This document shows positions 1,506-63,440 of a DNA stretch of 64,000 nucleotides, piece after piece. Both the position numbers and the translations under genes were made by a program. The notes under the pieces are model-generated. The model saw nothing but the letters and a program-made list of their open reading frames with translations, made no database searches and was not told the origin of the DNA. This stretch comes from Mobula hypostoma (Eukaryota), in contig NC_086097.1 in the NCBI RefSeq assembly GCF_963921235.1, forward strand, positions 12,338,001 through 12,402,000. The letters run 5' to 3'. The first letter of the stretch is position 1, and the number at the start of each line of letters is the position of its first letter.

Positions 1506-1607
1506 TAGAATAGAAACATAGAAACATAGAAAATAGGTGCAGGAGTAGGCCATTCGGCCCTTCGAGCCTGCACCGCCATTTATTATGATCATGGCTGATC
1601 ATCCAAC

Positions 1608-4607
1608 TCAGAACCCAGCCTTCCCTCCATACCCCCTGACCCCTGTAGCCACAAGGGCCATATCTAACTTCCTTTTAAACATAGCTAATGAACTGGCCTC
1701 AACAGTTTGCTGTGGCAGAGAATTCCACAGATTCACCACTCTCTGTGTGAAGAAGTTTTTCCTAACCTCGGTCCTAAAAGGCTTCCCCTCTATCCTCAAA
1801 CTGTGACCCCTCGTTCTAGACCTCCCCAACATCGGGAACAATCTTCCTGCATCTAGCCTGTCCAATCCCTTTAGGATCTTATACGTTTCAATCAGATCCC
1901 CCCTCAATCTTCTAAATTCCAACGAGTACAAGCCCAGTTCATCCAGTCTTTCTTCATATGAAAGACCTGCCATCCCAGGAATCAATCTGGTGAACCTTCT
2001 TTGTACTCCCTCTATGGCAAAGATGTCTTTCCTCAGATTAGGGGACCAAAACTGCACACAATACTCCAGGTGTGGTCTCACCAAGGCCTTGTACAACTGC
2101 AGTAGTACCTCCCTGCTCCTGTACTCGAATCCTCTCGCTATAAATGCCAGCATACCGTTCGCCTTTTTCACCGCCTGCTGTACCTGCATGCCCACTTTCA
2201 ATGACTGGTGTATAATGACACCCAGGTCTCGTTGCACCTCCCCTTTTCCTAATCGGCCACCATTCAGATAATAATCTGTTTTCCTATTTTTGCCACCAAA
2301 GTGGATAACTTCACATTTATCCACATTAAATTGCATCTGCCATGAGTTTGCCCACTCACCCAACCTATCCAAGTCACCCTGCATCCTCTTAGCATCCTCC
2401 TCACTGCTAACACTGCCACCCAGCTTCGTGTCATCCGCAAACTTGGAGATGCTGCATTTAATTCCCTCATCCAAGTCACTAATATATATTGTAAACAACT
2501 GGGGTCCCAGCACTGAGCCTTGCGGTACCCCACTAGTCACCGCCTGCCATTCTGAAAAGGTCCCGTTTATTCCCACTCTTTGCTTCCTGTCTGCTAACCA
2601 ATTCTCCACCCACACCAATACCTTACCCCCAATACCGTGTGCTTTAAGTTTGCACACTAATCTCCTATGTGGGACCTTGTCAAAAGCCTTTTGAAAATCC
2701 AAATATACCACATCCACTGGTTCTCCCCTATCCACTCTACTAGTTACATCCTCAAAAAATTCTATGAGATTCGTCAGACATGATTTTCCTTTCACAAATC
2801 CATGCTGACTTTGTCCGATCATTTCACCGCTTTCCAAATGTGCTGTTATCACATCCTTGATAACTGACTCCAGCAGTTTCCCCACCACCGACGTTAGGCT
2901 AACCGGCCTATAATTCCCCGGTTTCTCTCTCCCTCCTTTTTTAAAAAGTGGGGTTACATTAGCCACCCTCCAATCCTCAGGAACTAGTCCAGAATCTAAC
3001 GAGTTTTGAAAAATTATCACTAATGCATCCACTATTTCTTGGGCCACTTCCTTAAGCACTCTGGGATGCAGACCATCTGGCCCTGGGGATTTATCTGCCT
3101 TCAATCCCTTCAATTTACCTAACACCACTTCCCTACTAACATGTATTTCGCTCAGTTCCTCCATCTCACTGGACCCTCTGTCCCTTACTATTTCTGGAAG
3201 ATTATTTATGTCCTCCTTAGTGAAGACAGAACCAAAGTAATTATTCAATTGGTCTGCCATGTCCTTGCTCCCCATAATCAATTCACCTGTTTCTGTTTGC
3301 AGGGGACCTACATTTGTCTTTATCAGTCTTTTCCTTTTTACATATCTATAAAAGCTTTTACAGTCCGTTTTTATGTTCTCTGCCAGTTTTCTCTCATAAT
3401 CTTTTTTCCCCTTCCTAATTAAGCCCTTTGTCCTCCTCTGCTGAACTCTGAATTTCTCCCAGTCCTCAGGTGAGCCACTTTCTCTGGCTAATTTGTATGC
3501 TACTTCTTTGGAATTGATACTATCCCTAATTTCTCTTGTCAGCCACGGGTGCACTACCTTCCTTGATTTATTCTTTTGCCAAACTGGGATGAACAATTGT
3601 TGTAGTTCATCCATGCAACCTTTAAATGCCTGCCATTGCATATCCACCGTCAATCCTTGAAGTGTCATTTGCCAGTCTATCTTAGCTAATTCATGTCTCA
3701 TACCTTCAAAGTTACCCCTCTTTAAGTTCAGAACCTTTGTTTCTGAATTAACTACGTCACTCTCCATGTTAATGAAGAATTCCACCATATTATGGTCACT
3801 CTTACCCAAGGGGCCTCTCACGACAAGATCGCTAATTAACCCTTCCTCATTGCTCAAAACCCAGTCCAGAATAGCCTGCTCTCTAGTCGGTTCCTCGACA
3901 TGTTGGTTCAAAAAACCATCCCGCATACATTCCAAGAAATCCTCTTCCTCAGCACCTTTACCAATTTGGTTCACCCAGTCTACATGTAGATTGAAGTCAC
4001 CCATTATAACTGCTGTTCCTTTATTGCACACATTTCTAATTTCCTGTTTAATACCATCTCTGACCTCACTACTACTGTTAGGTGGCCTGTACACAACTCC
4101 CACCAGCGTCTTCTGCCCCTTAGTGTTACGCAGCTCTACCCATATCGATTCCACATCTTCCCGGCTTATGTCCTTCCTTTCTATTGCGTTAATCTCTTTT
4201 TTAACCAGCAACGCCACCCCACCTCCCCTTCCTTCGTGTCTATCCCTCCTGAATATTGAATATCCCTGAACGTTGAGCTCCCATCCCTGGTCACCCTGGA
4301 GCCATGTCTCTGTGATCCCAACTATATCATAATCATTAATAACAATCTGCACTTTCAATTCATCCACCTTATTACGAATGCTCCTTGCATTGACACATAA
4401 AGCCTTCAGGCACTCTTTTACAACTCTCTTAGCCCTTTTTAATGCTTGCCCTGGATTTGTCGGCCTGCCACTTTTACTTTTCCCCTTTGTACTTTTTGCT
4501 TCTACGCTCACTTTACACCCCTCTGTCTCTCTGCACTGGTTCCCATCCCTCTGTTGTGAACTAACCTCCTCACACCTAGCCGCTTTAATTTGATTCCCAC
4601 CCCCCAA
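1608..4607 (-). CDS. CR1 ORF2: apurinic endonuclease plus reverse transcriptase, uninterrupted (track start is TTG, not AUG)
   Basis: APE motifs NARS, ITETWL, YRPP, GDFN, SDH; RT motifs YRPVSL, DFQKAFDKV, GVPQGSVLGP, FADD; CR1 C-terminus TRGHSLR..RVVNLWNSLP. Confidence 0.95.
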   Translation of the reverse strand: MGGGNQIKAARCEEVSSQQRDGNQCRETEGCKVSVEAKSTKGKSKSGRPTNPGQALKRAKRVVKECLKALCVNARSIRNKVDELKVQIVINDYDIVGITETWLQGDQGWELNVQGYSIFRRDRHEGRGGGVALLVKKEINAIERKDISREDVESIWVELRNTKGQKTLVGVVYRPPNSSSEVRDGIKQEIRNVCNKGTAVIMGDFNLHVDWVNQIGKGAEEEDFLECMRDGFLNQHVEEPTREQAILDWVLSNEEGLISDLVVRGPLGKSDHNMVEFFINMESDVVNSETKVLNLKRGNFEGMRHELAKIDWQMTLQGLTVDMQWQAFKGCMDELQQLFIPVWQKNKSRKVVHPWLTREIRDSINSKEVAYKLARESGSPEDWEKFRVQQRRTKGLIRKGKKDYERKLAENIKTDCKSFYRYVKRKRLIKTNVGPLQTETGELIMGSKDMADQLNNYFGSVFTKEDINNLPEIVRDRGSSEMEELSEIHVSREVVLGKLKGLKADKSPGPDGLHPRVLKEVAQEIVDALVIIFQNSLDSGLVPEDWRVANVTPLFKKGGREKPGNYRPVSLTSVVGKLLESVIKDVITAHLESGEMIGQSQHGFVKGKSCLTNLIEFFEDVTSRVDRGEPVDVVYLDFQKAFDKVPHRRLVCKLKAHGIGGKVLVWVENWLADRKQRVGINGTFSEWQAVTSGVPQGSVLGPQLFTIYISDLDEGIKCSISKFADDTKLGGSVSSEEDAKRMQGDLDRLGEWANSWQMQFNVDKCEVIHFGGKNRKTDYYLNGGRLGKGEVQRDLGVIIHQSLKVGMQVQQAVKKANGMLAFIARGFEYRSREVLLQLYKALVRPHLEYCVQFWSPNLRKDIFAIEGVQRRFTRLIPGMAGLSYEERLDELGLYSLEFRRLRGDLIETYKILKGLDRLDAGRLFPMLGRSRTRGHSLRIEGKPFRTEVRKNFFTQRVVNLWNSLPQQTVEASSLAMFKRKLDMALVATGVRGYGGKAGF

Positions 4608-4612
4608 CCATT

Positions 4613-5297
4613 CTAGTTTAAAGTCACCTCAGTAGCCCCCGCTAATCTCCCTGCCAGGATATTGGTCCCCCGAGGATTTAAGTGTAACCCGTCCTTTTTG
4701 TACAGGTCACACCTGCGCCAAAAGAGGTCCCAATGATCCAAAAACTTGAATCCCTGCCCCCTGCTCCAATCCCTCAGCCACGCATTTATCCTCCACCTCA
4801 TCGCATTCCTACTCTCACTGTCGCGTGGCACAGGCAGTAATCCCGAGATTACTACCTTTGCGGTCCTTTTTCTCAACTCCCTTCCTAGCTCCCTATATTC
4901 TTCTTTCAAGACCTCATCCCTTTTCCTACCTATGTCATTGGTACCTATATGTACCAGGACCTCTGGCTCTTCACCCTCCCACTTCAGGATATCTTGGACA
5001 CGATCAGAAATATCCCGGACCCTGGCACCAGGGAGGCAAACTACCATCCGAGTCTCTGGACTGCGTCCACAGAATCGCCTATCTGACCCCCTTACTATCG
5101 AGTCCCCTATCACAACTGCCCTCCTCTTCCTTGCCCTACCCTTCTGAGCTACAGGGCCAGACTCTGTGCCGGAGGCAGGGCCACTGTCGCTTCCCCCGGG
5201 TAAGCTGTCCCCCCCAACAGTACTCAAACAGGAGTACCTGTTGTTAAGGGGCACAGCCGCCGGGGTACTCCCCATCACCTTCCTTTTCCCCTTCCCC
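4613..5297 (-). CDS. CR1 ORF1 C-terminal part: SGNH/GDSL-like esterase (N-terminus lost)
   Basis: Blocks VVIGDSIVRG, CLPGARVRD, VHIGTNDI, DGLHLNPRG; the first ~22 aa of the track ORF come from the adjacent Rex1-like DNA. Confidence 0.9.
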
Positions 5298-5300
5298 CTG

Positions 5301-7145
5301 AGTAAGTACAGGCCTGTGTATAAGCAGAGACTGAAGACTGCAGTACCAGTAGTGAGGACCAAGAAGGTACGGACAGGGAAGCACAGGAGTGCTTACGGGA
5401 CTGCTTTGAATTGGTGAACTGGACTGTATTCAGGGATTCATCTTCGAATCTGGATGAGTATGCCAGACTTGTTACCGACTTCATTAAAACCTGTGTGGAT
5501 GAGTGTGTGACAATGAAAACTTGCTGTATATTTCCAAACCAAAAGCCGTGGAGAACCAGGAGGTACATCATCACCTGAGGGCTAGATCTGTGGCATTTAA
5601 GTCTGGTGACCCAGGTCTGTACAAGAACACTAGATATAACTTGTGGAAGGGCTATTTCAAGAATGAAGAGACAATTCTGAGTGAGGTTTGAAGCAACATC
5701 AGATACGTGTCAACTCTGGCTGGGTTTGCAGGACATTACTTCCTATAAAGTGAAACCCATGAATGACAGTAATGCTTCACTACCAGATGAGCTCAACACC
5801 TTCTATACCAGATTTGAAAGGGAGAATATAACTACAGCTGTGAAGATCCTTGCTGCACCTGGTGACCCTGAGGTCTTTGTCTTGGATGCCAATGTTAGGC
5901 TGTCTTTAAGAAGGGTGAACCCTCGCAAGGCGGCAGGCCCCGATGGAGTACCTGGTAATGCTCTGAAAACTTGTGCCAACCATGTGGCGGGAGTATTCAA
6001 GGACATTTTCAACCTCTCACTGTTATGGTTGGAAGTTCCCACTTGCTTCAAAAAGGCAACAATTATACTGGTGCCCAAGAAGAGTAGTGTGAGTTGCCTT
6101 AATGACTATCACCAAGTAACACTCACATCTATGGTGATGAAATGCTTTGAGAGGTCAATCATGGCTAGAATGAACTCCTGTCTCAGCAAGGACCTAGACC
6201 CACTCCAACTTGCCTATCGCCACAATACATCTATGACAGACTCAATCTCAATGGCTCTTCACACGGCCTTAGATCACCTATGTCAGGATGGTGTTCATTG
6301 ACTATAACTCAGCCTTTAACACCATCATTCCCACTGTCCTGATTGATAAGCTACAGAACCTGGGGCTCTGTACTTCCCTCTGCAACTGGAGTCTCGACTT
6401 CCTAACCAAAAGACCAAAATCCATGTGGATTGGAGATAATATCTCCTCCTCACAGATGATCAACACGGAGCGAGATATACCAGCTCATTGAGGGGTGTCA
6501 CAGCAACAACCTTGCACTCAACCTCAGTAAGACCAAAGAGCTGATTGTAGACTTCAGGAAGAATAAGACAAAGGAACATTAAACAATCCTCATAGAGGGA
6601 TCAGAAGTGGAGAGAGTGAACAGTTTCAAGTTCCTGGATGTCAAGATCTCTGAGGATCTAACCTGGTCCCAATATATCAGTGCGGCTATAAAGAAGGCAA
6701 GACACCAGCTATATTTCATCAGGAGTTTGAAAAGATTGAGTTTGTCATTTAAAACACATGCAAACTTAATAAATGTACTCTAGAGAGCATTGAGACAGGC
6801 TGCATCACTGTCTAGTATGGGGGTATGCCCAATCTACCAGGGCATGCCTTCTTCTCATTGCATTGTTACCATCAGGAAGGAGGTACAGAAGCTTGAAGGC
6901 ACGCACTCAGCGATTCAAGAACAGCTTCCTGCTTCTTCCCCTCTGCCTTCTGATTCCTAAATGGACATTGAACCCATGAATAATGCTTCATTTTTGTTTT
7001 AACATTATTATTTCTGTTACTTACTGTAATTTATCTACTTTTTTCTTTCTTTCTGTATTATCATGTATTGCATTGCACTGCTGCTGCTAAGTTCACAAAT
7101 TTCATGTTATATGCCGGTGATAATAAACACAATTCTGATTCTGAA
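5301..7145 (+). mobile_element. Rex1/Babar-like LINE, 5'-truncated, frameshifted RT
   Basis: Fragments [41 protein letters not shown]; 3' tail ..ATAATAAACACAATTCTGATTCTGA. Confidence 0.85.
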
Positions 7146-9431: not shown

Positions 9432-12400
9432 AGAAACATAGAAAATAGGTGCAGGAGTAGGCCATTCGGCCCTTCGAGCCTGCACCGCCATTTATTATGA
9501 TCATGGCTGATCATCCACCTCAGAACCCTGCCCCAGCCTTCCCTCCATACCCCCTGACCCCTGTAGCCACAAGGGCCATATCTAACTCCCTCTTAAATAT
9601 AGCCAATGAACTGGCCTCAACTGTTTCCTGTGGCAGAGAATTCCACAGATTCACCACTCTCTGTGTGAAGAAGTTTTTCCTAATCTCGGTCCTAAAAGGC
9701 TTCCCCTCTATCCTCAAACTGTGGCCCCTCGTTCTGGACTTCCCCAACATCGGGAACAATCTTCCTGCATCTAGCCTGTCCAATCCCTTTAGGATCTTAT
9801 ATGTTTCAATCAGATCCCCCCTCAATCTTCTAAATTCCAACGAGTACAAGCCCAGTTCATCCAGTCTTTCTTCATATGAAAGTCCTGCCATCCCAGGAAT
9901 CAATCTGGTGAACCTTCTTTGTACTCCCTCTATGGCAAGGATGTCTTTCCTCAGATTAGGGAACCAAAACTGCACACAATACTCCAGGTGTGGTCTCACC
10001 AAGGCCTTGTACAACTGCAGTAGTACCTCCCTGCTCCTGTACTCGAATCCTCTCGCTATAAATGCCAGCATACCATTCGCCTTTTTCACCGCCTGCTGTA
10101 CCTGCATGCCCACTTTCAATGACTGGTGTATAATGACACCCAGGTCTCGTTGCACCTCCCCTTTTCCTAATCGGCCACCATTCAGATAATAATCTGTTTT
10201 CCTATTTTTGCCACCAAAGTGGATAACTTCACATTTATCCACATTAAATTGCATCTGCCATGAATTTGCCCACTCATCCAACCTATCCAAGTCACCCTGC
10301 ATCCTCTTAGCATCCTCCTCACTGCTAACACTGCCACCCAGCTTCGTGTCATCCGCAAACTTGGAGATGCTGCATTCAATTCCCTCATCCAAGTCATTAA
10401 TATATATTGTAAACAACTGGGGTCCCAGCACCGAGCCTTGCGGTACCCCACTAGTCACCGCCTGCCATTCTGAAAAGGTCCCGTTTATTCCCACTCTTTG
10501 CTTCCTGTCTGCTAACCAATTCTCCACCCACACCAAAACCTTACCCCCAATACCGTGTGCTTTAAGTTTGCACACTAATCTCCTGCGTGGGACCTTGTCA
10601 AAAGCCTTTTGAAAATCCAAATATACCACATCCACTGGTTCTCCCCTATCCACTCTACTAGTTACATCCTCAAAAAATTCTATGAGATTCATCAGACATG
10701 ATTTTCCTTTCATAAATCCATGCTGACTTTGTCCGATCATTTCACCGCTTTCCAAATGTGCTGTTATCACATCCTTGATAACTGACTCCAGCAGTTTCCC
10801 CACCACCGACGTTAGGCTAACCGGTCTATAATTCCCCGGTTTCTCTCTCTCTCCTTTTTTAAAAAGTGGAGTTACATTAGCCACCCTCCAATCCTCAGGA
10901 ACTAGTCCAGAATCTAACGAGTTTTGAAAAATTATCACTAATGCATCCGCTATTTCTTGGGCTACTTCCTTAAGCACTCTAGGATACAGACCATCTGGCC
11001 CTGGGGATTTATCTGCCTTCAATCCCTTCAATTTACCTAACACCACTTCCCTACTAACATGTATTTTGCTCAGTTCCTCCATCTCACTGGACCCTCTATC
11101 CCCTACTATTTCTGGAAGATTATTTATGTCCTCCTTAGTGAAGACAGAACCAAAGTAATTATTCAATTGGTCTGCCATGTCCTTGCTCCCCATAATCAAT
11201 TCACCTGTTTCTGTCTGCAGGGGACCTACATTTGTCTTTACCAGTCTTTTCCTTTTTACATATCTATAAAAGCTTTTACAGTCCGTTTTTATGTTCCCTG
11301 CCAGTTTTCTCTCATTATCTTTTTTCCCCTTCCTAATTAAGCCCTTTGTCCTCCTCTGCTGAACTCTGAATTTCTCCCAGTCCTCAGGTGAGCCACTTTC
11401 TCTGGCTAATTTGTATGCTTCTTCTTTGGAATTGATACTATCCCTAATTTCTCTTGTCAGCCACGGGTGCACTACCTTCCTTGATTTATTCTTTTGCCAA
11501 ACTGGGATGAACAATTGTTGTAGTTCATCCATGCAAGCTTTAAATGCTTGCCATTGCATATCCACCGTCAATCCTTTAAGTGTCATTTGCCAGTCTATCT
11601 TAGCTAATTCACGTCTCATACCTTCAAAGTTACCCCTCTTTAAGTTCAGAACCTTTGTTTCTGAATTAACTATGTCACTCTCCATCTTAATGAAGAATTC
11701 CACCATATTATGGTCACTCTTACCCAAGGGGCCTCTCACGACAAGATTGCTAATTAACCCTTCCTCATTGCTCAAAACCCAGTCCAGAATAGCCTGCTCT
11801 CTAGTTGGTTCCTCGACATGTTGGTTCAAAAAACCATCCCGCATACATTCCAAGAAATCCTCTTCCTCAGCACCTTTACCAATTTGGTTCACCCAGTCTA
11901 CATGTAGATTGAAGTCACCCATTATAACTGCTGTTCCTTTATTGCACACATTTCTAATTTCCTGTTTAATACCATCTCCGACCTCACTACTACTGTTAGG
12001 TGGCCTGTACACAACTCCCACCAGCGTCTTCTGCCCCTTAGTGTTACGCAGCTCTACCCATATCGATTCCACATCTTCCCGGCTTATGTCCCTCCTTTCT
12101 ATTGCGTGAATCTCTTCTTTAACCAGCAACGCCACCCCACCTCCCCTTCCTTCTTGTCTACCCCTCCTGAATATTGAATATCCCTGAACGTTGAGCTCCC
12201 ATCCCTGGTCACCCTGGAGCCATGTCTCTGTGATTCCAACTATATCATAATCATTAATAACAATCTGCACTTTCAATTCATCCACCTTATTACGAATGCT
12301 CCTTGCATTGACACACAAAGCCTTCAGGCGCTCTTTTACAACTCTCTTAGCCCTTATACAATTATGCTGAAAAGTGGCCCTTTTTAATGCTTGCCCTGGT

Positions 12401-12483
12401 TTGGTCGGCCTGCCACTTTTACTTTTCTCCTTTGTACTTTTTGCTTCTGTCTTCACTTTACACCCCTCTGTCTCTCTGCACTG
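9432..12483 (-). mobile_element. CR1 LINE copy 2, same subfamily as 1506-5300, 5'-truncated near the start of ORF2
   Basis: Colinear and highly similar to 1515-4540; same tail. Confidence 0.97.
9520..12456 (-). CDS. CR1 ORF2 APE-RT, uninterrupted (track start is GTG)
   Basis: 978-aa open frame with all APE and RT motifs, including GDFN, SDH, QGSVLGP and FADD. Confidence 0.93.
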   Translation of the reverse strand: MKTEAKSTKEKSKSGRPTKPGQALKRATFQHNCIRAKRVVKERLKALCVNARSIRNKVDELKVQIVINDYDIVGITETWLQGDQGWELNVQGYSIFRRGRQEGRGGGVALLVKEEIHAIERRDISREDVESIWVELRNTKGQKTLVGVVYRPPNSSSEVGDGIKQEIRNVCNKGTAVIMGDFNLHVDWVNQIGKGAEEEDFLECMRDGFLNQHVEEPTREQAILDWVLSNEEGLISNLVVRGPLGKSDHNMVEFFIKMESDIVNSETKVLNLKRGNFEGMRRELAKIDWQMTLKGLTVDMQWQAFKACMDELQQLFIPVWQKNKSRKVVHPWLTREIRDSINSKEEAYKLARESGSPEDWEKFRVQQRRTKGLIRKGKKDNERKLAGNIKTDCKSFYRYVKRKRLVKTNVGPLQTETGELIMGSKDMADQLNNYFGSVFTKEDINNLPEIVGDRGSSEMEELSKIHVSREVVLGKLKGLKADKSPGPDGLYPRVLKEVAQEIADALVIIFQNSLDSGLVPEDWRVANVTPLFKKGEREKPGNYRPVSLTSVVGKLLESVIKDVITAHLESGEMIGQSQHGFMKGKSCLMNLIEFFEDVTSRVDRGEPVDVVYLDFQKAFDKVPRRRLVCKLKAHGIGGKVLVWVENWLADRKQRVGINGTFSEWQAVTSGVPQGSVLGPQLFTIYINDLDEGIECSISKFADDTKLGGSVSSEEDAKRMQGDLDRLDEWANSWQMQFNVDKCEVIHFGGKNRKTDYYLNGGRLGKGEVQRDLGVIIHQSLKVGMQVQQAVKKANGMLAFIARGFEYRSREVLLQLYKALVRPHLEYCVQFWFPNLRKDILAIEGVQRRFTRLIPGMAGLSYEERLDELGLYSLEFRRLRGDLIETYKILKGLDRLDAGRLFPMLGKSRTRGHSLRIEGKPFRTEIRKNFFTQRVVNLWNSLPQETVEASSLAIFKRELDMALVATGVRGYGGKAGAGF

Positions 12484-18169: not shown

Positions 18170-18845
18170 GTTTGTTTATTTAGTTAATGATACAGCATTG
18201 AACAGGCCCTTCCAGCCCTACGAGATGCACCACCCAGCAACCTACCTATTTAACACTTGCCCAATCACAGGACAATCTGCATTGACTAATTAACATATCG
18301 GTATGTCTTTGTTTGTCTTTGGACTGTGGGAGGAAACAGGAGCACCAGGGGAAAACTCATGCATTCCACAGGGAGTCCATAAGACCATAAGACCACGAAA
18401 TGGTGAAATAGGCTCCATGGCTGATCTATTTTCCCTCTCAGCCCCAATCTCTTGCCTTCTCCGTGTTCCTTGATGCCCAGACCAGTCAAGAATCTGTCAA
18501 TCCCTGTCTTAAATGTACCTAATGATCTGGACTCTACAGTCACCTGTGGCAACAAATTTCACAGATTCACATCTCTCTGGTTACAGACATTCCTCCTCAT
18601 CTCCATTCCAAATGGATGTCACTCTATTCTGAGGTGGTGTCCTCTGGTCTTAGACTCCCTCACTATAGGAAGCAAACTTTCCACATTCACTCTGTCTGGG
18701 CCTTTCAACATTCAATAGGTTTCAATGAGATCCTTCCTCATTCTTCTAAAGTGAAGATGTACAGACTCCTTGTAGATGACATTGAAATTGAACTCTGAAC
18801 TCCAATGTCTCAAGCTGAAATAGCTCGGCAAATGTTAACAGACAG
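18170..18845 (-). mobile_element. V-SINE (antisense) interrupted by a CR1 3' fragment (~18377-18750)
   Basis: SINE TTTGGACTGTGGGAGGAAAC..CACAGGGAG resumes at GAAGATGTACAGACTCCTT; the insert has a (CCATAAGA)n tail and CR1 3' coding sequence. Confidence 0.75.
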
Positions 18846-34989: not shown

Positions 34990-36436
34990 TGGATCTTAAA
35001 TATCATTCCACTCTTTAAGAATGGAGGAAGGCAGCAGAAAGGAAATTATAGACTAGTTAGCCTGACCTCAGTGGTTGGGAAGATGCTGGAGTCAATTGTT
35101 AAGGATGAGGTTATGGAGTACTTGGTGATACTGGACAAGATAGGACAAAGCCAGCATGGTTTCCTTCAGGGGAAATCGTGCCTGATGAACCTGTTCAAAT
35201 TCTTTGAGATTACAAGTAAGATAGATAAGGAGATGTAGTGGATGTTGTATATTTGGACGTTCAGAAGGCGTTTGACAAGGTGCCACACATGAGGCTACTT
35301 ACCAGAGCTCATGGTATTACATAAATGTTACTGGCATGGTTAGAACATTGGCTGATTGGTAGGAGGAAGTGAATGGGAGCAAAAGGATCCTTTTCTGGTT
35401 GGCTGCCAGTGACTAGTGGTGTTCTGCAGGGGTCGGTGTTGGGACCATTTCTTTTTATGTTGTATATCAATGATTTAGATGATGGAATTGCTGGCTTTGT
35501 TGCCAAGTTTGCAGATGATACGAAGATTGGTGGAGAAGTAGGTAGTGTTGAGGAAACAGGTAGGCAGCAAAAGGACAGAAAGATTGGGAGAATGGGCAAG
35601 AAAGTGGCAAATAAAATACAATGTTGGAAAAAGCATGGTCATGCACTTTGATAGAAAAAATAAATGTGCAGACTATTTTCTAAATGGAGAGAAAATCCAA
35701 AAATTTGAGATGCAAAAGGACTTGTGAGTCCTTATGCAGAACATCCTGAAGGTTAACTTGCAGGTTGAGTCAGTGGTGAGAATGGCAAATGCCATGTTAG
35801 CATTCGTTTCAAGAGGTCTAGAATACAAGAGCAGGGATGTGATGCTGAGGCTTTATAAGGCACTGGTGAGGCCCCACCTTGAGTATTGTGAATAGTTCTG
35901 GGCTCCTCATCTAAGAAAGGATGTGCTGGCATTGGAGAGGGTCCAGAGAAGGTTCACAAGGATGATTCTGGGAATGAAAGGGTTATCATATGAGGGACAT
36001 TTGATAGCTCTGGGTCTATACTTGCTGGAATTTAGAAGGATGAGGAGGGATCTCATTGAAACCTTTCAAACGTTGAAAGGCCTAGACAGAGTAGATGTGG
36101 AAAGGATGTTTCTCATGGTGGGAGAGTCTACGACAAGAGGGCACAGCCTCAGGATAGAGAGGCGTCCATTTAAAACAGAGTTGCAAAGAAATTTCTTTAG
36201 CCAGATGGTGGTGAGTTTATGGAACTTATTATCCCAGGCAGCTGTGGAGGCCGGGTTGTTAGGTGTATTTGAGGCTGAGCTTGATAGGTTCTTCATTATA
36301 CATGGCATCAAAAGTTCTGGGGAGAAGGCAGTAGAGTGGGGCTGAGGAGGGGATAAAAGGATGAGCCATGACTGAATGGCGGAGCAGACTCGATGGGCCA
36401 AAAGGCCTAATTCTACTCCTATGTCTTATGTTCTTA
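34990..36436 (+). mobile_element. CR1 LINE, 5'-truncated, decayed RT
   Basis: Fragments GNYRLVSLTSVVGK, GVLQGSVLGP..FADDTK, TRGHSLR; TCTTATG tail. Confidence 0.9.
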
Positions 36437-37270: not shown

Positions 37271-37866
37271 TACAACTGCAAGGTATTTCACAGCAACTTT
37301 CTCAAGCAAACTTTCACAGCAATCTATAAAATAAAAAATAGATGACTAGCAACTTGGTCAAAGAAGCAGTTTGAATCACCCGGTATTGGAAATTAGAAAC
37401 CATAGCCATGTTTTTCAAGAGATGTGGATGAAAGGAAAGTGGATACATTAGGCCAGTTAATCCGACATCAGTGGTAGGAATAATGTTAAGATCTATTTTT
37501 AGGGATATGGTAACAGGGCACTTTGAAATATATAATATGATTAGACAGAGTCAAGACAGAAGTATGAAAAGGAAATTGTGATTGACAAATCTGTTAGGGA
37601 TTTTAGAGGTTGTAGCAGAGCCATGCATAGATAAATGAAACCTTTGAATGCAGTGTATTTCAATTTTGAAATAAGGTGCCACACAAGAGGCTATTACACA
37701 AAATTAGGACTCATTGGATGGAGGATAATATATAATGAAATGAAGACTGGTTAACAGGCAGAAAACCAGAACAGAAATAAAGATAATTTTCAGATATGCA
37801 GACTTTTACTGGTGAGGAGAAATGATTCACGTAGGTGACGGGACTGGATGCAATCACTTTTGCTGA

Positions 37867-46979: not shown

Positions 46980-47351
46980 GGGGTGACCTAATTGAAACCG
47001 ATTGAATGTTGAAAGGCGTTGATAGAGTAGATGTGTAGAGGATGTTTCTGATGGTAGAAGAGTCTAAGATCAGAGGACTCAGAATATAGGGACATCTATT
47101 TAGAATGGAGATGAGAAGGCATTTCTTTACCTGGAGAGTGGGAATCTGTGGAATTCATTGCCACAGGCAGCTGTAGAGGCCAAGTCTTTACAAATATTTA
47201 AGGCCAAGGTTGAGGCATGAAGGGATACAGGAAGAAGGCAGGATATTGGGGCTGAAAGGAATATTAAGTGAGCCATGATGAAGGGACGGAACACTCGATG
47301 GGCCAAATGGCCTAATCCTGCTCCTATATCTTACGGTCTTATAGTCTTATG
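46980..47351 (+). mobile_element. CR1 3' remnant
   Basis: GGTGACCTAATTGAAACC..GTGGAATTCATTGCCACAG; TCTTACGG/TCTTATAG tail. Confidence 0.75.
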
Positions 47352-54659: not shown

Positions 54660-56082
54660 AAGACCATAAGACCAAATGACATAGGAACAGAATTAGGCCA
54701 TGTGGCCCATCGAGCCTGCACCACCATTCAATCATGGCTGATCTATTTTTCCCCTCCTCAGCCCCACTCCCCGGCATTTTCCCCATAACCTTTGATGCCA
54801 TGTCCATTCAAGAACCTAAATACACCTAACAACCTGGCCTCCACAGCTGCCTGCAGTAACAAATTCCACAAATTCACCAGCATCTGGCTAAAGAAATTTC
54901 TCCGCATTTTTTTTTTAAATGGATGTCCCTCTATCCTGAGAATGTAACCTCTTGTCCGAGACTCCCCCACAATGGAGAACATCCTTTCTGCATCTAATCA
55001 GTCTAGGCATTTCAACATTCAAAAGATTTCAATGAAATCACCCCCATCCTTCTAAATTCCAGTGAATACAGACTCAGAGCTATCAAATATTCCTCGTATG
55101 ATAACCCTTTCATTCCCGGAATCATCCTTGTGAACCTATTCTGAACCTCTCCAATGCCAGCACATCTTTTCTTAGATGAGGAGCCCAAAACTGTTCACAA
55201 TACTCAAGGTGAGGCCTCACCAGTGCCTTATAAAGCCTCAGCATCACAACTCTCCTCTTGTATTCAAGACCTCTTGAAATTAATGCTGATATTGCATTTG
55301 GCTTCCTCACCATTGACCCTACCTGCAAGTTAACCTTTAGGGTGTTCTGCACAAGGACTCCCAAGTCCTTTTGAATCTCAGATTTTTGGATTTTCTCCCT
55401 GTTTAGAAAATTGTCTGCACATTTATTTCTACTACCAAATTGCATGATCATGCACTTTCCAGCATTGTATTTCATTTGCCACTTTCTTGCCTATTCTAAT
55501 CTGTGTAATTCTTCTGCAGCCTTCCTGTTTCCTCAACACTACCTACCCCTCCACCAAGCTTTGTATCATCTGCAAACTTGGCAACAAAGCCATCTATTCC
55601 ATCATCTACATTGATATACAACGTAAAAGGAAATGGTCCCAACACCAACACCTGCAGAACACCACTAGTCACTGGCAGCTATCCAGTAAAGAATCCTTTT
55701 ATTCCCACTCACTGCTTCCTACCAATCAGCCAATGCTCTCACCATGGCAGTAACTTTCCTGTAATACCATGGGCTCTTAACATGGTAAACAGCTTCATCT
55801 GTGGCACCTTGTCAAAGGCCTTCTGAAAGTCCAAAACTACAGCATCCACTGCATCCTCTTTATCTATCTTACTTATAGTCTCCGCAAAGAATTCCAACAG
55901 GTTTGTTAGGCAAGATTTTCCTTTAAGGATACCATGCTGACTTTGTCCTATCTTGTCCTGTGTCACCAAGTACTCCGTAGCCTCATCCTTAACAATTAAT
56001 TGCAACATCTTCCCAACCACTGAAGTCAGGCTAACTGGTCTATAATTTCCTTTCTGCGGCCTTCCTCCTTTCTTAAAGAGTG
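54660..56082 (-). mobile_element. CR1 LINE, 5'-truncated, decayed; same subfamily as 34990-36436
   Basis: GNYRPVSLTSVVGK, LDFQKAFDKVP, ALVRPHLEYC; (AAGACCAT)n tail. Confidence 0.9.
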
Positions 56083-58756: not shown

Positions 58757-59922
58757 CATAAACATAGAACCATAGAACCATAGAACACTACAGCACAGAA
58801 AACAGGCCATTCGGCCCTTCAAGTCTGTACCAAAACATTATTCCGCTAGTCCCATTGACCTGCATCCAGTCCATAACCCACCAGACCTCTCCCATCCATG
58901 TACCTATCTAATTTATTCTTAAAACTTAAGAGTGAGCCCGCATTTACCACGTCAGTTGGCAGCTCGTTCCACACTCCCACCACTCTCTGAGTGAAGAAGT
59001 TCCCCCTAATGTTCCCCCTAAACCTTTCCCCTTTCACCCTAAAACCATGTCCTCTCGTATTTATCTCTCCTAATCTAAGTGGAAAGAGCCTATTCACATT
59101 TACTCTGTCTATACCCCTCATAATTTTGTAAATCTCTATCAAATCTTCCCTCATTCTTCTATACTCCAAGGAATAACGCCCTAACCTGCTCAATCTTTCC
59201 CTGTAATTCAACTCCTGAAGACCCGGCAACATCCTAGTAAATCATCTCTGCATTCTTTCAATCTTACTGATATCCTTCCTATAGTTAGGTGACTAGAACT
59301 GTACACAATACTCCAAATTTGGCCTCACCAATGTCTTATACAACCTCCCCATAACATCTCAACTCCTATACTCAATACTTTGATTTATGAATGCCAGGAT
59401 GCCAAAAGCCTTCTTTACAACCCTGTCTACCTCTGACACCACTTCCAGGGAATTATGTATCTGAACTCCCAGATCTCTTTGTTCCTCCATACTCCTCAGT
59501 GCCCTACCATTTACTGTGTATGTCCTACCTTGATTTGTCCTTCTTAAATGCAACACCTCACACTTGTCGGCATTAAATTCCATCTGCCATTTTGTGGCCC
59601 ATTTTTCCAGTTGGTCCGGATCCCTCTGCAAGCTTTGAAATCCTTCCTTGCTGTCCACAACGCCTCCAATCTTAGTGTCATCAGCAAACTTGCTGATCCA
59701 ATTTATCACATTATTATCTAGATCATTGATATAGAGAACAAACAACAATGGTCCCAGCACAGATCCTTGAGGCACACCACTAGTCACAGGCCTCCAGTCT
59801 GATAAGCAATCATGCACTACCACTCTCTGTCTTCTCCCACACAGCCAATTTCAAATCTAGTTTACAACCTCTCCATGGATACCTAGTATCTGAACCTTCT
59901 GAACTAACCTCCCATGTGGGAC
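58757..59922 (-). mobile_element. CR1 LINE, another subfamily, 5'-truncated
   Basis: GVPQGSVLGPLLF, FADDTKIGG, TRGHGFRVKG, RVVGVWNELP; (CATAGAAC)n tail; a Rex1 RT fragment lies to its left (~58530-58756). Confidence 0.9.
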
Positions 59923-62298: not shown

Positions 62299-63222
62299 CA
62301 ATAGACAATAGACAATAGGTGCAGGAGTAGGCCATTCGGCCCTTTGAGCCAGCCCCGCCATTCACTGTGATCATGGCTGATCATCCACTATCAGTATCCA
62401 GTTCCTGCCTTATCCCCATAACCTTTGATTCCACTATCTTTAAGAGCTCTATCCATCTCTTTTTTGAAAGCATCCAGAGACTTGGCCTCCACAGCCTTCT
62501 GGGGCAGAGCATTCCATATATCCACCACTCTCTGGGTGAAAAAGATTTTCCTCAACTCCGTTCTAAATGGCCTACCCCTTATTCTTAAACTGTGGCCTCT
62601 GGTTCTGGACTCACCCATCAGTGGGAACATGCTTCCTGCCTCCAGCGTGTCCAATCCTTTAATAATCTTATATGTTTCAATAAGATCCCCTCTCAGCCTC
62701 CTTCTAAATTCCAGTGTATACAAGCCCAGTCGCTCCAATCTTTCAACATACGACAGTCCCGCCATCCTGGGAATTAACCTTGTGAACCTACGCTGAACTC
62801 CCTCAATAGCAAGAATGTCCTTCCTCAAATTTGGAGACCAAAACTGCACACAGTATTCCAGGTGTGGTCTCACCAGGGCCCTGTACAGCTGAAGAAGGAC
62901 CTCTTTGCTCTTATACTCAATTTCCCTTGTTATGAAGGCCAGCATGCCATTAGCTTTCTTCACAGCCTGCTGTACTTGCATGCTTGTTTTCAGTGACTGA
63001 TGTACAAGAATACCTAGATCTCGTTGTGCTTCCACTTTTCCTAACTTGACTCCATTTAGATTATAGCCTGCCTTCCCGTTCTTACCACCAAAGTGGATAA
63101 CCTCACATTTATCCAAATTAAACTGCATCTGCCATGCATCTGCCCACTCACCCAGCCTGTCCAAGTCACCCTGCATTCTCATAACATCCTCCTCACATTT
63201 CACACTGCCACCCAGCTTTGTG
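62299..63222 (-). mobile_element. CR1 LINE 3' fragment with open RT C-terminal frame
   Basis: ORF 62391-63230 homologous to the CR1 ORF2 C-terminus; (CAATAGA)n tail. Confidence 0.92.
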
Positions 63223-63225
63223 TTC

Positions 63226-63440
63226 TTCAAGATACAGCACAGCCCAATGAGCCGTACTGCCCAATTACACCCATGTGATCAATTTACCTACCAGCCTCTG
63301 GTCTTTGGACTATGGGAGGAAACTGGAGCACGTGGAGGAAACCCACACAGTCATGGGGAGAACATGCAATCTCCTTACAGAGAATGGCTGGAGATGAGCC
63401 CAGGTTGGTGGTGCTGTAACAACATGCTAACTGTGTCACC
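63226..63440 (-). mobile_element. V-SINE (antisense)
   Basis: TCTTTGGACTATGGGAGGAAACTGGAGCACGTGGAGGAAACCCACAC. Confidence 0.75.

What the first reader, a model, noticed from the sequence alone, without database searches (positions are those of the whole stretch)
4590..4631. Candidate programmed -1 ribosomal frameshift joining CR1 ORF1 (esterase) to an AUG-less ORF2
Seen on the minus strand: ORF1 ends ACT TTA AAC TAG, so the heptamer T_TTA_AAC (4622-4616) sits in X_XXY_YYZ phase directly before the stop (4615-4613). ORF2 is in the -1 frame (TTT AAA CTA GAA TGG TTG..). That frame is closed by TGA at 4631-4629, so the overlap is only 16 nt and contains the heptamer. ORF2 has no AUG until codon 202, deep inside the endonuclease. 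The AUG just after the stop (4611-4609) opens only an 8-codon ORF in the third frame. A G-rich tract GGTTGGGGGGTGGG starts 6 nt downstream, at a typical spacer distance. Established: U_UUA_AAC is the coronavirus slippery site, and human L1 ORF2 uses termination-reinitiation instead. Inference: this LINE makes a gag-pol-like esterase-APE-RT fusion by -1 frameshifting.
Basis: partly seen in the sequence, partly recalled or inferred. Interest (0 to 1): 0.85.

Follow-up and report, generated by a model that had tools for sequence, protein, structure and literature searches.

The report
Conserved frameshift site in CR1 LINEs
A jumping gene (CR1-type LINE) in this ray-like genome joins its two genes through a seven-letter "slippery" site, a stop codon and a run of G's, and the same three features recur in distant relatives from sharks, frogs and tubeworms, so the second gene is probably made when the ribosome slips back one base.

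Summary
On the minus strand ORF1 (SGNH esterase) ends ACT TTA AAC TAG, so T_TTA_AAC (4622-4616) is in X_XXY_YYZ phase beside the stop. ORF2 (APE-RT) is in the -1 frame, opens 6 nt before the heptamer and has no Met until codon 209. The window copy is 5'-truncated, but at least 40 copies in the genome are identical across the junction.

The main evidence is comparative. Fifteen lineages were aligned without gaps: two families of this genome and 13 metagenome contigs whose ORF1 is only 31-42% identical, some nearest to an annelid. Only the heptamer, the stop and a G5-6 run exactly 10 nt downstream are conserved. The codon before the heptamer varies but keeps a third-position U. ORF2 is in the -1 frame in 14 of 16 loci with an APE match. 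The linker has ten different lengths, all in phase, and is stop-free in 13 of those 14. Of 208 database ORF1 homologues, 126 end in Leu-Asn.

No hairpin is predicted and no C-rich partner was found. A G-quadruplex is predicted in only some lineages.

Best reading: programmed -1 frameshifting makes an ORF1-ORF2 fusion (about 0.75). The main rival is termination-reinitiation. No description for CR1 was found, but -1 frameshifting has been claimed for Dictyostelium TRE LINEs.

The parts
1518..5299 (-). 5'-truncated copy of a young CR1-group LINE (family A1)
   Evidence: 99.8% identical to full-length copies L001 and L010 from 5299 downwards. Homology to the second window copy ends at 1518, at an (ATGTTTCT)n-like tail.
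4613..5299 (-). ORF1 remnant, lacking the first 83 of 311 codons, stop included; esterase domain about 5113-4667
   Evidence: Pfam PF13472 E 1.9e-16. PDB 4c1b, 'ORF1-encoded protein', E 1.6e-28. Full-length ORF1 of 311 aa in 13 of 30 sampled A1 copies.
4629..4631 (-). TGA that closes the -1 (ORF2) frame upstream of the heptamer
   Evidence: overlap 16 nt in 30 of 30 A1 loci.
4616..4622 (-). Slippery heptamer T_TTA_AAC in X_XXY_YYZ phase of ORF1
   Evidence: 1.6-2.0 bits per position across 15 lineages. The preceding codon varies but ends in T in 14 of 15.
4613..4615 (-). ORF1 stop codon TAG directly after the heptamer
   Evidence: A stop is adjacent in 15 of 15 lineages: TAG in 13, TAA in L114, TGA in L109.
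4600..4605 (-). G6 run starting exactly 10 nt after the heptamer, inside the G-rich tract 4609-4596
   Evidence: 1.6-2.0 bits at positions +17..+21 in 15 lineages against about 0.4 bits in the flanks. The run starts 10 nt after the heptamer in 13 of these 15 lineages, at 9 nt in L078 and 7 nt in L079. No pairing partner was found.
4404..4622 (-). Linker of the -1 frame between heptamer and APE (about 73 codons, purine-rich, basic, no ATG, no stop)
   Evidence: 0 stops in the -1 frame against 3 and 6 in the other two frames; no ATG. A 27-nt in-frame insertion distinguishes subfamily A2.
1608..4628 (-). ORF2 frame (1006 codons, stop included): APE about 4352-3792, RT about 2933-2280
   Evidence: Nearest solved chains are L1 ORF2p (8sxt, E 2.2e-21).
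4609..4611 (-). ATG 1 nt after the stop, in the third frame, opening 8 codons
   Evidence: It reads ATT in family B, so it is not conserved.

Best explanation
The junction is a programmed -1 ribosomal frameshift signal, and it is the route by which this CR1-group LINE expresses ORF2.

Most ribosomes translate ORF1 and stop at UAG, releasing ORF1p (coiled coil plus SGNH esterase). A minority slip back one base on U_UUA_AAC. The Leu tRNA re-pairs from UUA to UUU and the Asn tRNA from AAC to AAA. These ribosomes continue in the -1 frame through a roughly 73-codon basic linker into APE-RT, making an ORF1-ORF2 fusion at a fixed low ratio, as in gag-pol.

What is shown: the anatomy, the phase, the lack of an AUG, and conservation of heptamer, stop and G run at nucleotide level, including wobble positions, across very distant lineages.

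What is inferred: that slippage occurs, that the product is a fusion, and that the G5-6 run 10 nt downstream (7 nt after the stop) and the adjacent stop codon help it. One variant I consider plausible is that the slip happens while the stop codon sits in the A site. That would put the G run at the usual stimulator distance.
For: 1. Anatomy.

2. The family is young and keeps the arrangement. At least 40 copies are 100% identical over 501 nt. All 30 sampled copies have the 16-nt overlap. 13 of 30 have a full 311-aa ORF1, and 28 of 30 keep ORF2 open for all 574 codons held.

3. Family B of the same genome has ORF1 76-82% but APE only 36-42% identical. It keeps TTTAAAC in 14 of 14 copies and TAG in 13 of 14, plus the G run. 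The 30 nt from the heptamer onward differ from family A at one base, while the flanks differ much more.

4. Metagenome contigs with 31-42% ORF1 identity carry NNT TTA AAC, a stop and a G run.

5. In an ungapped alignment of 15 lineages, information is 1.4-2.0 bits at heptamer plus stop and 1.6-2.0 bits at the G run, against at most 1.1 bits elsewhere.

6. ORF2 is in the -1 frame in 14 of 16 loci with an APE match. The distance from heptamer to APE takes 10 different values (80 to 260 nt), all equal to 2 mod 3. 13 of the 14 have no stop in that frame, against 1-10 stops in each other frame.

7. 7 of the 14 have no in-frame ATG before APE.

8. Proteins: 45 of 88 ORF1 homologues (rays, skates, sharks, Xenopus) and 81 of 120 relatives of an annelid-like ORF1 end in Leu-Asn. 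The residue before it is one that can be encoded NNU in 125 of 126.

9. Contigs of four runs from other coded organisms show 40 listed differences at 38 places over 351 nt, and none falls in 4590-4625.
Against: There is no experimental evidence of slippage or of a fusion protein.

No downstream hairpin or pseudoknot is predicted. MFE z-scores range from -2.1 to +1.7, no fold is shared, and no C-rich partner lies within -250 to +400. The usual stimulator is therefore missing, and the role of the G run is a guess.

Four distant lineages have an ORF2-frame ATG right after the stop: L114 reads TAATGG, and L074, L078 and L085 have ATG at codon 5. This fits termination-reinitiation there.

L079 has GTTAAAC, a broken X position, plus an in-frame ATG.

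In family B, 6 of 14 copies carry TGA in the -1 frame 10 codons after the heptamer. I read this as CpG decay of CGA (7 copies CGA, 1 CAA), which is an inference.

The lineages share ancestry, so the counts are not independent events.

Table 3 withheld 31 less-supported differences, so the gap at 4590-4625 is not proof.

The Leu-Asn C-terminus and the Gly-Gly in the -1 frame could in principle be constrained at protein level.
Confidence: 0.75

Rival explanations
1. Termination-reinitiation, or AUG-independent initiation, at or near the ORF1 stop. Ribosomes finish ORF1 at UAG and some resume in the ORF2 frame, as reported for SART1 (UAAUG) and human L1. On this reading the conserved TTTAAAC-stop-G-run is a reinitiation signal rather than a slip site, and ORF2p is made as a separate protein.
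For: L114 has the SART1-like TAATG with the ATG in the ORF2 frame. L074, L078 and L085 have an ORF2-frame ATG 5 codons after the start of the heptamer. The stop codon is conserved directly beside the motif in 15 of 15 lineages, which canonical -1 PRF does not require. Passages in PMC3708506 and PMC5009743 describe reinitiation for SART1 and L1. No stimulatory structure is predicted.
Against: 7 of 14 lineages, including the window family, have no ORF2-frame ATG before APE. The nearby ATG of the window family is in the wrong frame and is ATT in family B. Reinitiation does not explain why the wobble base of the variable codon before Leu is always U, or why Leu is always UUA and Asn always AAC. 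It also does not explain why the motif is always in X_XXY_YYZ phase.
Confidence: 0.15
2. The motif is conserved for a reason unrelated to ORF2 translation. Examples are a required Leu-Asn C-terminus of ORF1p together with a Gly-Gly in ORF2p, or an RNA site for packaging or reverse transcription. ORF2 would then start at a non-AUG codon somewhere in the linker.
For: Leu-Asn is the C-terminus in 126 of 208 homologues. Near-cognate codons such as TTG, GTG and CTG occur in the linker of the window copy (read). The G run has no predicted RNA partner.
Against: Protein-level selection would allow other Leu, Asn and Gly codons, yet only UUA, AAC and an unbroken G run are seen. The G run begins in the wobble position of a variable codon (CAG, AAG, TTG, AGG, TCG). 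The -1 frame stays open from the heptamer through linkers of 10 different lengths, all in phase, which independent downstream initiation would not require.
Confidence: 0.07
3. Chance, or a decayed copy: the overlap and the heptamer are accidents of one dead insertion.
For: The window copy itself is 5'-truncated and cannot be autonomous.
Against: At least 40 copies have an identical junction, many with both frames intact. The junction is conserved in families and phyla far apart.
Confidence: 0.01

Closest known systems
Coronavirus ORF1a/1b -1 PRF signal (U_UUA_AAC plus pseudoknot)
   Same: The slippery heptamer is identical and in the same phase, and a -1 shift gives access to the polymerase ORF. 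The heptamer's use in coronaviruses is established knowledge; PMC8499926 appeared only in the listing.
   Different: No pseudoknot or hairpin is predicted here. The 0-frame stop directly abuts the heptamer. The conserved downstream element is a bare G5-6 run at 10 nt.
Retroviral and LTR-retrotransposon gag-pol -1 frameshifting
   Same: The logic is the same: an abundant accessory protein and a rare fusion carrying the enzymes, from one mRNA at a fixed ratio. Passages of PMC5009743 report that 28 of 51 animal LTR elements have pol in the -1 frame.
   Different: This is a non-LTR element with no protease to cut the fusion, and ORF1p is an esterase, not Gag.
Dictyostelium TRE5-A / TRE3-A non-LTR retrotransposons
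   Same: [quoted passage not shown]
   Different: They come from a different clade and host. I saw no slip site, conservation analysis or stimulator described in that passage. The original papers were not read.
SART1 (UAAUG) and human L1 ORF2 translation by termination-reinitiation
   Same: The mRNA is a bicistronic LINE message, and the event is centred on the ORF1 stop codon. Lineage L114 even has TAATG.
   Different: Most lineages here lack an ORF2-frame AUG and carry a canonical slip site in phase. SART1 needs a downstream structure (passage in PMC3708506), and none is predicted here.
Plant luteovirus and dianthovirus -1 PRF sites where the 0-frame stop directly follows the heptamer (recalled, not checked in any call)
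   Same: The heptamer is immediately followed by UAG.
   Different: The heptamers differ, and those sites rely on downstream or long-distance RNA structures.
Protein-dependent -1 PRF with unstructured or distant 3' elements (arterivirus C-rich motif, cardiovirus 2A; names recalled)
   Same: The stimulator lies further than usual from the slip site and may be 'linear' RNA bound by a factor. A passage of PMC5009743 describes stimulators 12-15 nt downstream that work with trans-acting factors.
   Different: Here the element is G-rich and sits at 10 nt. No binding protein is known.
ZfL2-1 ORF1p esterase (PDB 4c1b; PMC3905857)
   Same: It is the nearest solved relative of ORF1 (E 1.6e-28), with the same coiled-coil plus SGNH esterase architecture.
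   Different: The searched passages of that paper say nothing about how ORF2 is translated: 'frameshift' and 'overlap' each occur 0 times.

Membership tests
CR1-group LINE with esterase-type ORF1 | ORF1 encodes an SGNH/GDSL esterase behind an N-terminal Cys motif and a coiled coil | tested here: met
   PF13472 E 1.9e-16. PDB 4c1b E 1.6e-28. Full-length homologues show CxxC...CxxC plus a heptad-rich segment. The window copy lacks the N-terminal 83 codons.
CR1-group LINE with esterase-type ORF1 | ORF2 with an APE endonuclease followed by a reverse transcriptase | tested here: met
   PF03372 E 1.2e-12 and PF00078 E 4e-33.
CR1-group LINE with esterase-type ORF1 | RT phylogeny places the element in the CR1 clade rather than L2 or others | not tested
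No tree was built.
Canonical -1 programmed ribosomal frameshift signal | An X_XXY_YYZ heptamer in the 0-frame phase inside the overlap | tested here: met
   T_TTA_AAC at 4622-4616. The phase is the same in 14 of 15 lineages; L079 has G at the X position.
Canonical -1 programmed ribosomal frameshift signal | The downstream ORF is in the -1 frame, open across the heptamer, and has no initiation codon of its own | tested here: met
   -1 frame in 14 of 16 loci with an APE match. No stop between heptamer and APE in 13 of those 14. No in-frame ATG in 7 of the 14, including the window family.
Canonical -1 programmed ribosomal frameshift signal | The heptamer is conserved at synonymous and wobble positions among relatives | tested here: met
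   1.6-2.0 bits at every heptamer position. Seven different preceding codons all end in T. 125 of 126 Leu-Asn-ending proteins have an NNU-capable residue before Leu.
Canonical -1 programmed ribosomal frameshift signal | A stable hairpin or pseudoknot 5-9 nt downstream | tested here: not met
   RNAfold on 60 and 100 nt from 14 lineages gives z from -2.1 to +1.7 and no shared fold. No C-rich partner. No Rfam match reached its gathering score. Pseudoknots were not modelled.
Canonical -1 programmed ribosomal frameshift signal | A transframe protein is demonstrated | not testable with these tools
   No RNA run is on record, and no proteomics or ribosome profiling is available.
G-quadruplex-stimulated frameshifting | Four G tracts able to form a quadruplex just 3' of the slip site, conserved among relatives | tested here: inconclusive
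   A two-tier G4 starting 6 nt after the heptamer is in the MFE for A1, A2 and L074. No G4 is in the MFE for 10 of 14 lineages, and L052's predicted G4 lies about 40 nt downstream, not at the tract. No lineage has a three-tier motif.
Termination-reinitiation (SART1 or calicivirus type) | A start codon in the downstream frame overlapping or within a few nt of the stop | tested here: not met
   In the window family the only nearby ATG is in the wrong frame. The feature is met in L114, L074, L078 and L085 only.
Termination-reinitiation (SART1 or calicivirus type) | An upstream or downstream RNA element that tethers the post-termination ribosome | not tested
   No search for 18S-complementary motifs was made. 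The G run could in principle serve this role.

The most novel reading that the evidence does not exclude
The signal is a new type of -1 frameshift cassette shared by esterase-bearing CR1-group LINEs from annelids to cartilaginous fish and frogs. It consists of U_UUA_AAC, an obligatory adjacent stop codon and an unstructured G5-6 run exactly 7 nt after the stop. On this reading slippage happens while the stop codon waits in the A site, with the Leu and Asn tRNAs in the E and P sites. The G run acts at the mRNA entry channel either directly or through a G-tract-binding protein. That protein could be the element's own ORF1p, which would let ORF1p level tune the ORF1p:ORF2p ratio. LINE ORF2 enzymes would then be made as ORF1-ORF2 fusions in a whole clade.
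Probability: 0.3. Interest if true: 0.9.

Novelty: new variant of a known kind. Interest (0 to 1): 0.75.

Why it matters
How LINEs translate ORF2 from a bicistronic RNA is a long-standing open question. Passages in PMC3708506 and PMC5009743 call it unclear or unknown.

This is a clade-wide signal defined to the nucleotide. It makes a simple, testable prediction: an esterase-APE-RT fusion made by -1 slippage. That would give CR1-group elements a gag-pol-like expression strategy. These elements are described as the dominant retrotransposons of most vertebrates in the abstract of PMC13343379.

The signal also offers a compact natural frameshift cassette: heptamer, stop, then a G run at fixed spacing, with no predicted RNA structure. 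That could expose a stimulation mode not covered by the hairpin and pseudoknot paradigm.

For annotation, it explains why gene finders leave CR1 ORF2 without a start or build chimeric models.

Tried and rejected
RNA evidence: no RNA holder is listed for the stretch. The four runs laid are contigs of uncertain kind, so they say nothing on expression, and no joint fusing ORF1 to ORF2 was seen.

Rfam: there are three matches, all far below their gathering scores (best E = 1), and I treat them as chance.

Downstream hairpin and C-rich partner for the G run: none found.

Fused gene models as evidence of a natural fusion: rejected.
- P0003 (stingray) and P0130, P0133, P0135, P0160 and P0162 pass from the ORF1 frame into the -1 frame upstream of the heptamer, in single copies or gene models.
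- The catfish proteins P0007, P0008 and P0012 are chimeras from another LINE type.

Family B as a counter-example: L052 shows TGA in the -1 frame and a private ATG. The 14-copy alignment mostly removes this objection, because the site is a decaying CpG (7 CGA, 1 CAA, 6 TGA) and the ATG is GTG in 11 of the 13 other copies.

A 2A-like 'NPG' in the linker (about 4457-4446) is absent from family B, so it is probably chance.

Earlier notes of this scan: searches by words and by sequence found nothing on this junction.

Literature: Kapitonov and Jurka 2003 (PMC7528939) is not held, and one search term was malformed. The early chicken and turtle CR1 papers and Repbase notes could not be read, so they may contain a remark on the overlap.


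Full report
**What is in the window**

On the minus strand the sequence reads ...GAG GTG ACT TTA AAC TAG AAT GGT TGG GGG GTG GGA ATC....

- The ORF1 frame ends at TAG (4615-4613). It encodes a GDSL/SGNH esterase (PF13472, E 1.9e-16). The nearest solved chain is 4c1b, 'ORF1-encoded protein' (E 1.6e-28).
- The -1 frame is closed by TGA at 4631-4629. It then runs open for 1006 codons to 1608 and encodes APE (PF03372) and RT (PF00078).
- T_TTA_AAC (4622-4616) is therefore in X_XXY_YYZ phase inside a 16-nt overlap, directly before the stop.
- The first Met codon of the ORF2 frame is codon 209, not 202, and lies inside the APE domain.
- The ATG at 4611-4609 is in the third frame and opens 8 codons.

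The copy itself is a 5'-truncated insertion spanning 5299 to about 1518. It lacks the first 249 nt of a 311-codon ORF1 and ends in short octamer repeats.

**The family is young and keeps the arrangement**

- A 501-nt query across the junction found 40 scored places at 100% identity among 1698 candidates in the 3.48-Gb assembly.
- All 30 fetched loci have the same 16-nt overlap.
- 13 of 30 have a full 311-aa ORF1, and 28 of 30 keep the -1 frame open for all 574 codons held.
- A Pfam-driven search brought in 30 more loci. Most belong to a subfamily 93-98% identical at protein level that has a 27-nt in-frame insertion in the linker.
- 27 of these 30 keep TTTAAACTAG. The exceptions are decayed copies.

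**A second family**

- L052 and L055 have ORF1 76-82% identical, but APE only 36-42% identical.
- I fetched 12 more copies as 261-nt pieces.
- In the 14-copy alignment TTTAAAC is present in 14 of 14, TAG in 13 of 14, and the G-rich tract is kept.
- Compared with the window family, the 30 nt from the heptamer onward differ at one base, whereas the flanks differ heavily.
- L052 seemed to refute the idea, with a TGA in the -1 frame ten codons on and an ATG before APE.
- The alignment shows that site as CGA in 7 copies, CAA in 1 and TGA in 6. It is a CpG, and other CpGs in the same alignment are decayed to a similar degree. The ATG is private to L052; 11 of the 13 other copies have GTG there.
- I infer an open, AUG-less -1 frame for that family too, but the 6 TGA copies remain a caveat.

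**Distant relatives: proteins**

- 45 of 88 ORF1 homologues end in Leu-Asn. Named sources include devil ray, skates, stingrays, sawfish, sharks and Xenopus.
- 44 of those 45 have, before the Leu, a residue that can be encoded NNU.
- A second search used the ORF1 of metagenome locus L075, whose named relatives (72-76%) are from the tubeworm Ridgeia. It gave 81 of 120 ending in Leu-Asn, preceded by Ser, Phe, Tyr, Cys or Leu only.
- Many of the proteins that do not end this way are truncated or frame-broken models.

**Distant relatives: DNA**

An ORF1 alignment was used to scan metagenome contigs and returned 76 loci.

- A pattern scan for NN(N)TTAAAC plus a stop found 15 metagenome loci with TTTAAAC, a stop and a run of four or more G. 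These are L073, L074, L075, L077, L078, L081, L083, L084, L085, L086, L092, L096, L109, L114 and L134. Thirteen have the run 10 nt after the heptamer; L078 has it at 9 nt and L134 at 12 nt.
- L076 has the motif but its contig ends there. L079 has GTTAAAC.
- L102, L137 and L143 match the pattern without any G run, and I take these as chance.
- Bacterial-type SGNH loci and a different LINE-like group that ends ...LR-TAG lack the motif.
- 16 loci have an APE match downstream, counting the three families of this genome. In 14 of them ORF2 is in the -1 frame; the other two (L081, L096) are decayed.
- The distance from heptamer to the aligned APE position takes ten values: 80, 92, 107, 125, 137, 164, 206, 233, 245 and 260 nt. 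All equal 2 mod 3.
- 13 of the 14 have no stop in that frame, while the other two frames carry 1-10 stops each.
- 7 of the 14 have no in-frame ATG before APE.

In an ungapped alignment of 15 lineages anchored on the motif, information content was:

| Region | Bits per position |
|---|---|
| Heptamer and stop | 1.4-2.0 |
| G run (positions +17 to +21) | 1.6-2.0 |
| Everywhere else | at most 1.1, mostly below 0.5 |

The codon before the heptamer is ACT, AGT, CAT, TAT, GCT, TCT or TGT. The G run begins in the wobble position of a variable codon. These are constraints at nucleotide level, not at protein level.

**Related species**

No run is on record as RNA. I laid contigs of four runs from four other coded organisms at 80% likeness or better. 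They showed 40 listed differences at 38 places over 351 nt, and none between 4590 and 4625. That block holds the heptamer, the stop and the G tract. Another 31 weaker differences were not displayed, so this is supportive only.

**Downstream element**

- RNAfold of 60 and 100 nt from 14 lineages gave z-scores from -2.1 to +1.7 and no common hairpin.
- No C-rich partner lies within -250 to +400.
- No Rfam match reached its gathering score.
- With G-quadruplex energies, a two-tier G4 starting 6 nt after the heptamer enters the MFE in the two ray subfamilies and in L074. No G4 enters the MFE in 10 of 14 lineages, and L052's predicted G4 lies well downstream of the tract.

So the universal element is a bare G5-6 run 10 nt after the heptamer, which is 7 nt after the stop.

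**Mechanism**

The best-supported reading is -1 programmed frameshifting on U_UUA_AAC. It would give ORF1p by termination and a minority ORF1-ORF2 fusion. The slip site is the one used by coronaviruses (established knowledge).

The conserved adjacent stop and the 10-nt spacing are not explained by the textbook model. Both would fit if slippage occurs with the stop codon in the A site. The G run would then sit where stimulators normally begin. This is my inference.

Termination-reinitiation is the main rival. It is favoured by the conserved stop and by four lineages that have an ORF2-frame ATG next to it. It does not explain the wobble-level conservation or the phase.

**What is known**

Nine full-text searches found no description of -1 frameshifting in CR1-group elements.

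I read passages, not whole papers, from these papers in particular:
- the Atkins 2016 review (PMC5009743);
- the 2026 CR1 survey (PMC13343379);
- Metcalfe and Casane 2014 (PMC4120745);
- Schneider 2013 (PMC3905857);
- the 2A paper (PMC3708506).

These correspond.

The review notes frameshifting in HeT-A gag and calls L1 ORF2 initiation unknown.

[quoted passage not shown] Frameshifting in a LINE is therefore not unprecedented.

Kapitonov and Jurka 2003 and the first chicken and turtle CR1 papers were not available.

**Verdict**

This is a real, deeply conserved recoding signal. It is most likely a -1 frameshift site with an unusual stimulator, and it would be new for the CR1 group as far as the searched literature shows.

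Noticed in passing
window 9532-12483 (-): A second copy of the same LINE family, 95% identical at protein level. It is 5'-truncated inside the ORF2 linker (it starts at ORF2 residue 31), so it lacks the junction.
   Followed up: partly
window 34993-36330 (+), 54785-56080 (-), 58858-59922 (-), 62403-63239 (-), 18460-18756 (-), 46982-47214 (+), 37375-37765 (+): 3' fragments of other, older CR1-like ORF2s, 39-76% identical to the RT and C-terminal part. They show that several CR1 lineages are layered in this region.
   Followed up: no
L052, L055, L061-L072 against window 4400-5300: The relationship between families is mosaic. ORF1 and the first ~70 nt after the stop are similar (ORF1 76-82% aa), but APE is only 36-42% identical. 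This suggests recombination between CR1 lineages with a breakpoint in the linker, in line with the 'reticulate ORF1 evolution' title of PMC4120745.
   Followed up: partly
protein P0031: A protein labelled 'SGNH/GDSL hydrolase family protein [Pseudomonas aeruginosa]' on a 4.2-kb contig is 62% identical to this ray LINE ORF1 and ends in the same ...GLN. It is probably fish or shark DNA contaminating a bacterial assembly.
   Followed up: no
proteins P0003, P0004, P0027, P0063, P0064: Host gene models named hydroxyacid oxidase 2, V-set Ig domain protein, 40S ribosomal protein S24 and TMEM204 isoforms contain pieces of CR1 ORF1 or ORF2. These are likely annotation chimeras in ray genomes.
   Followed up: no
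window about 4446-4457 (-): The ORF2 linker contains ...PTNPGQ..., which faintly resembles the NPGP end of 2A peptides reported at the N-terminus of some CR1 ORF2s (PMC3708506). It is absent from family B, so it is probably chance.
   Followed up: partly
loci L106, L111, L119, L121, L125: A separate group of esterase ORFs ends ...(I/M/S/V)LR-TAG followed by a conserved T/G-rich string (TTGG..GGTTTTGGCC-like). No APE lies within the held flank. It is a different junction type that may have its own signal.
   Followed up: no
protein P0089: An ORF1 homologue (37% identity) ends ...Ser-Lys-Asn instead of Leu-Asn. If the codons are UCA AAA AAC, this would be another canonical slip site (A_AAA_AAC). 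No DNA was available to check.
   Followed up: no
window 5300-6400: Immediately 5' of the truncated LINE, the plus strand has a 206-codon open frame (5681-6301) and other ORFs of 60-165 codons. They were not examined and may belong to another repeat.
   Followed up: no
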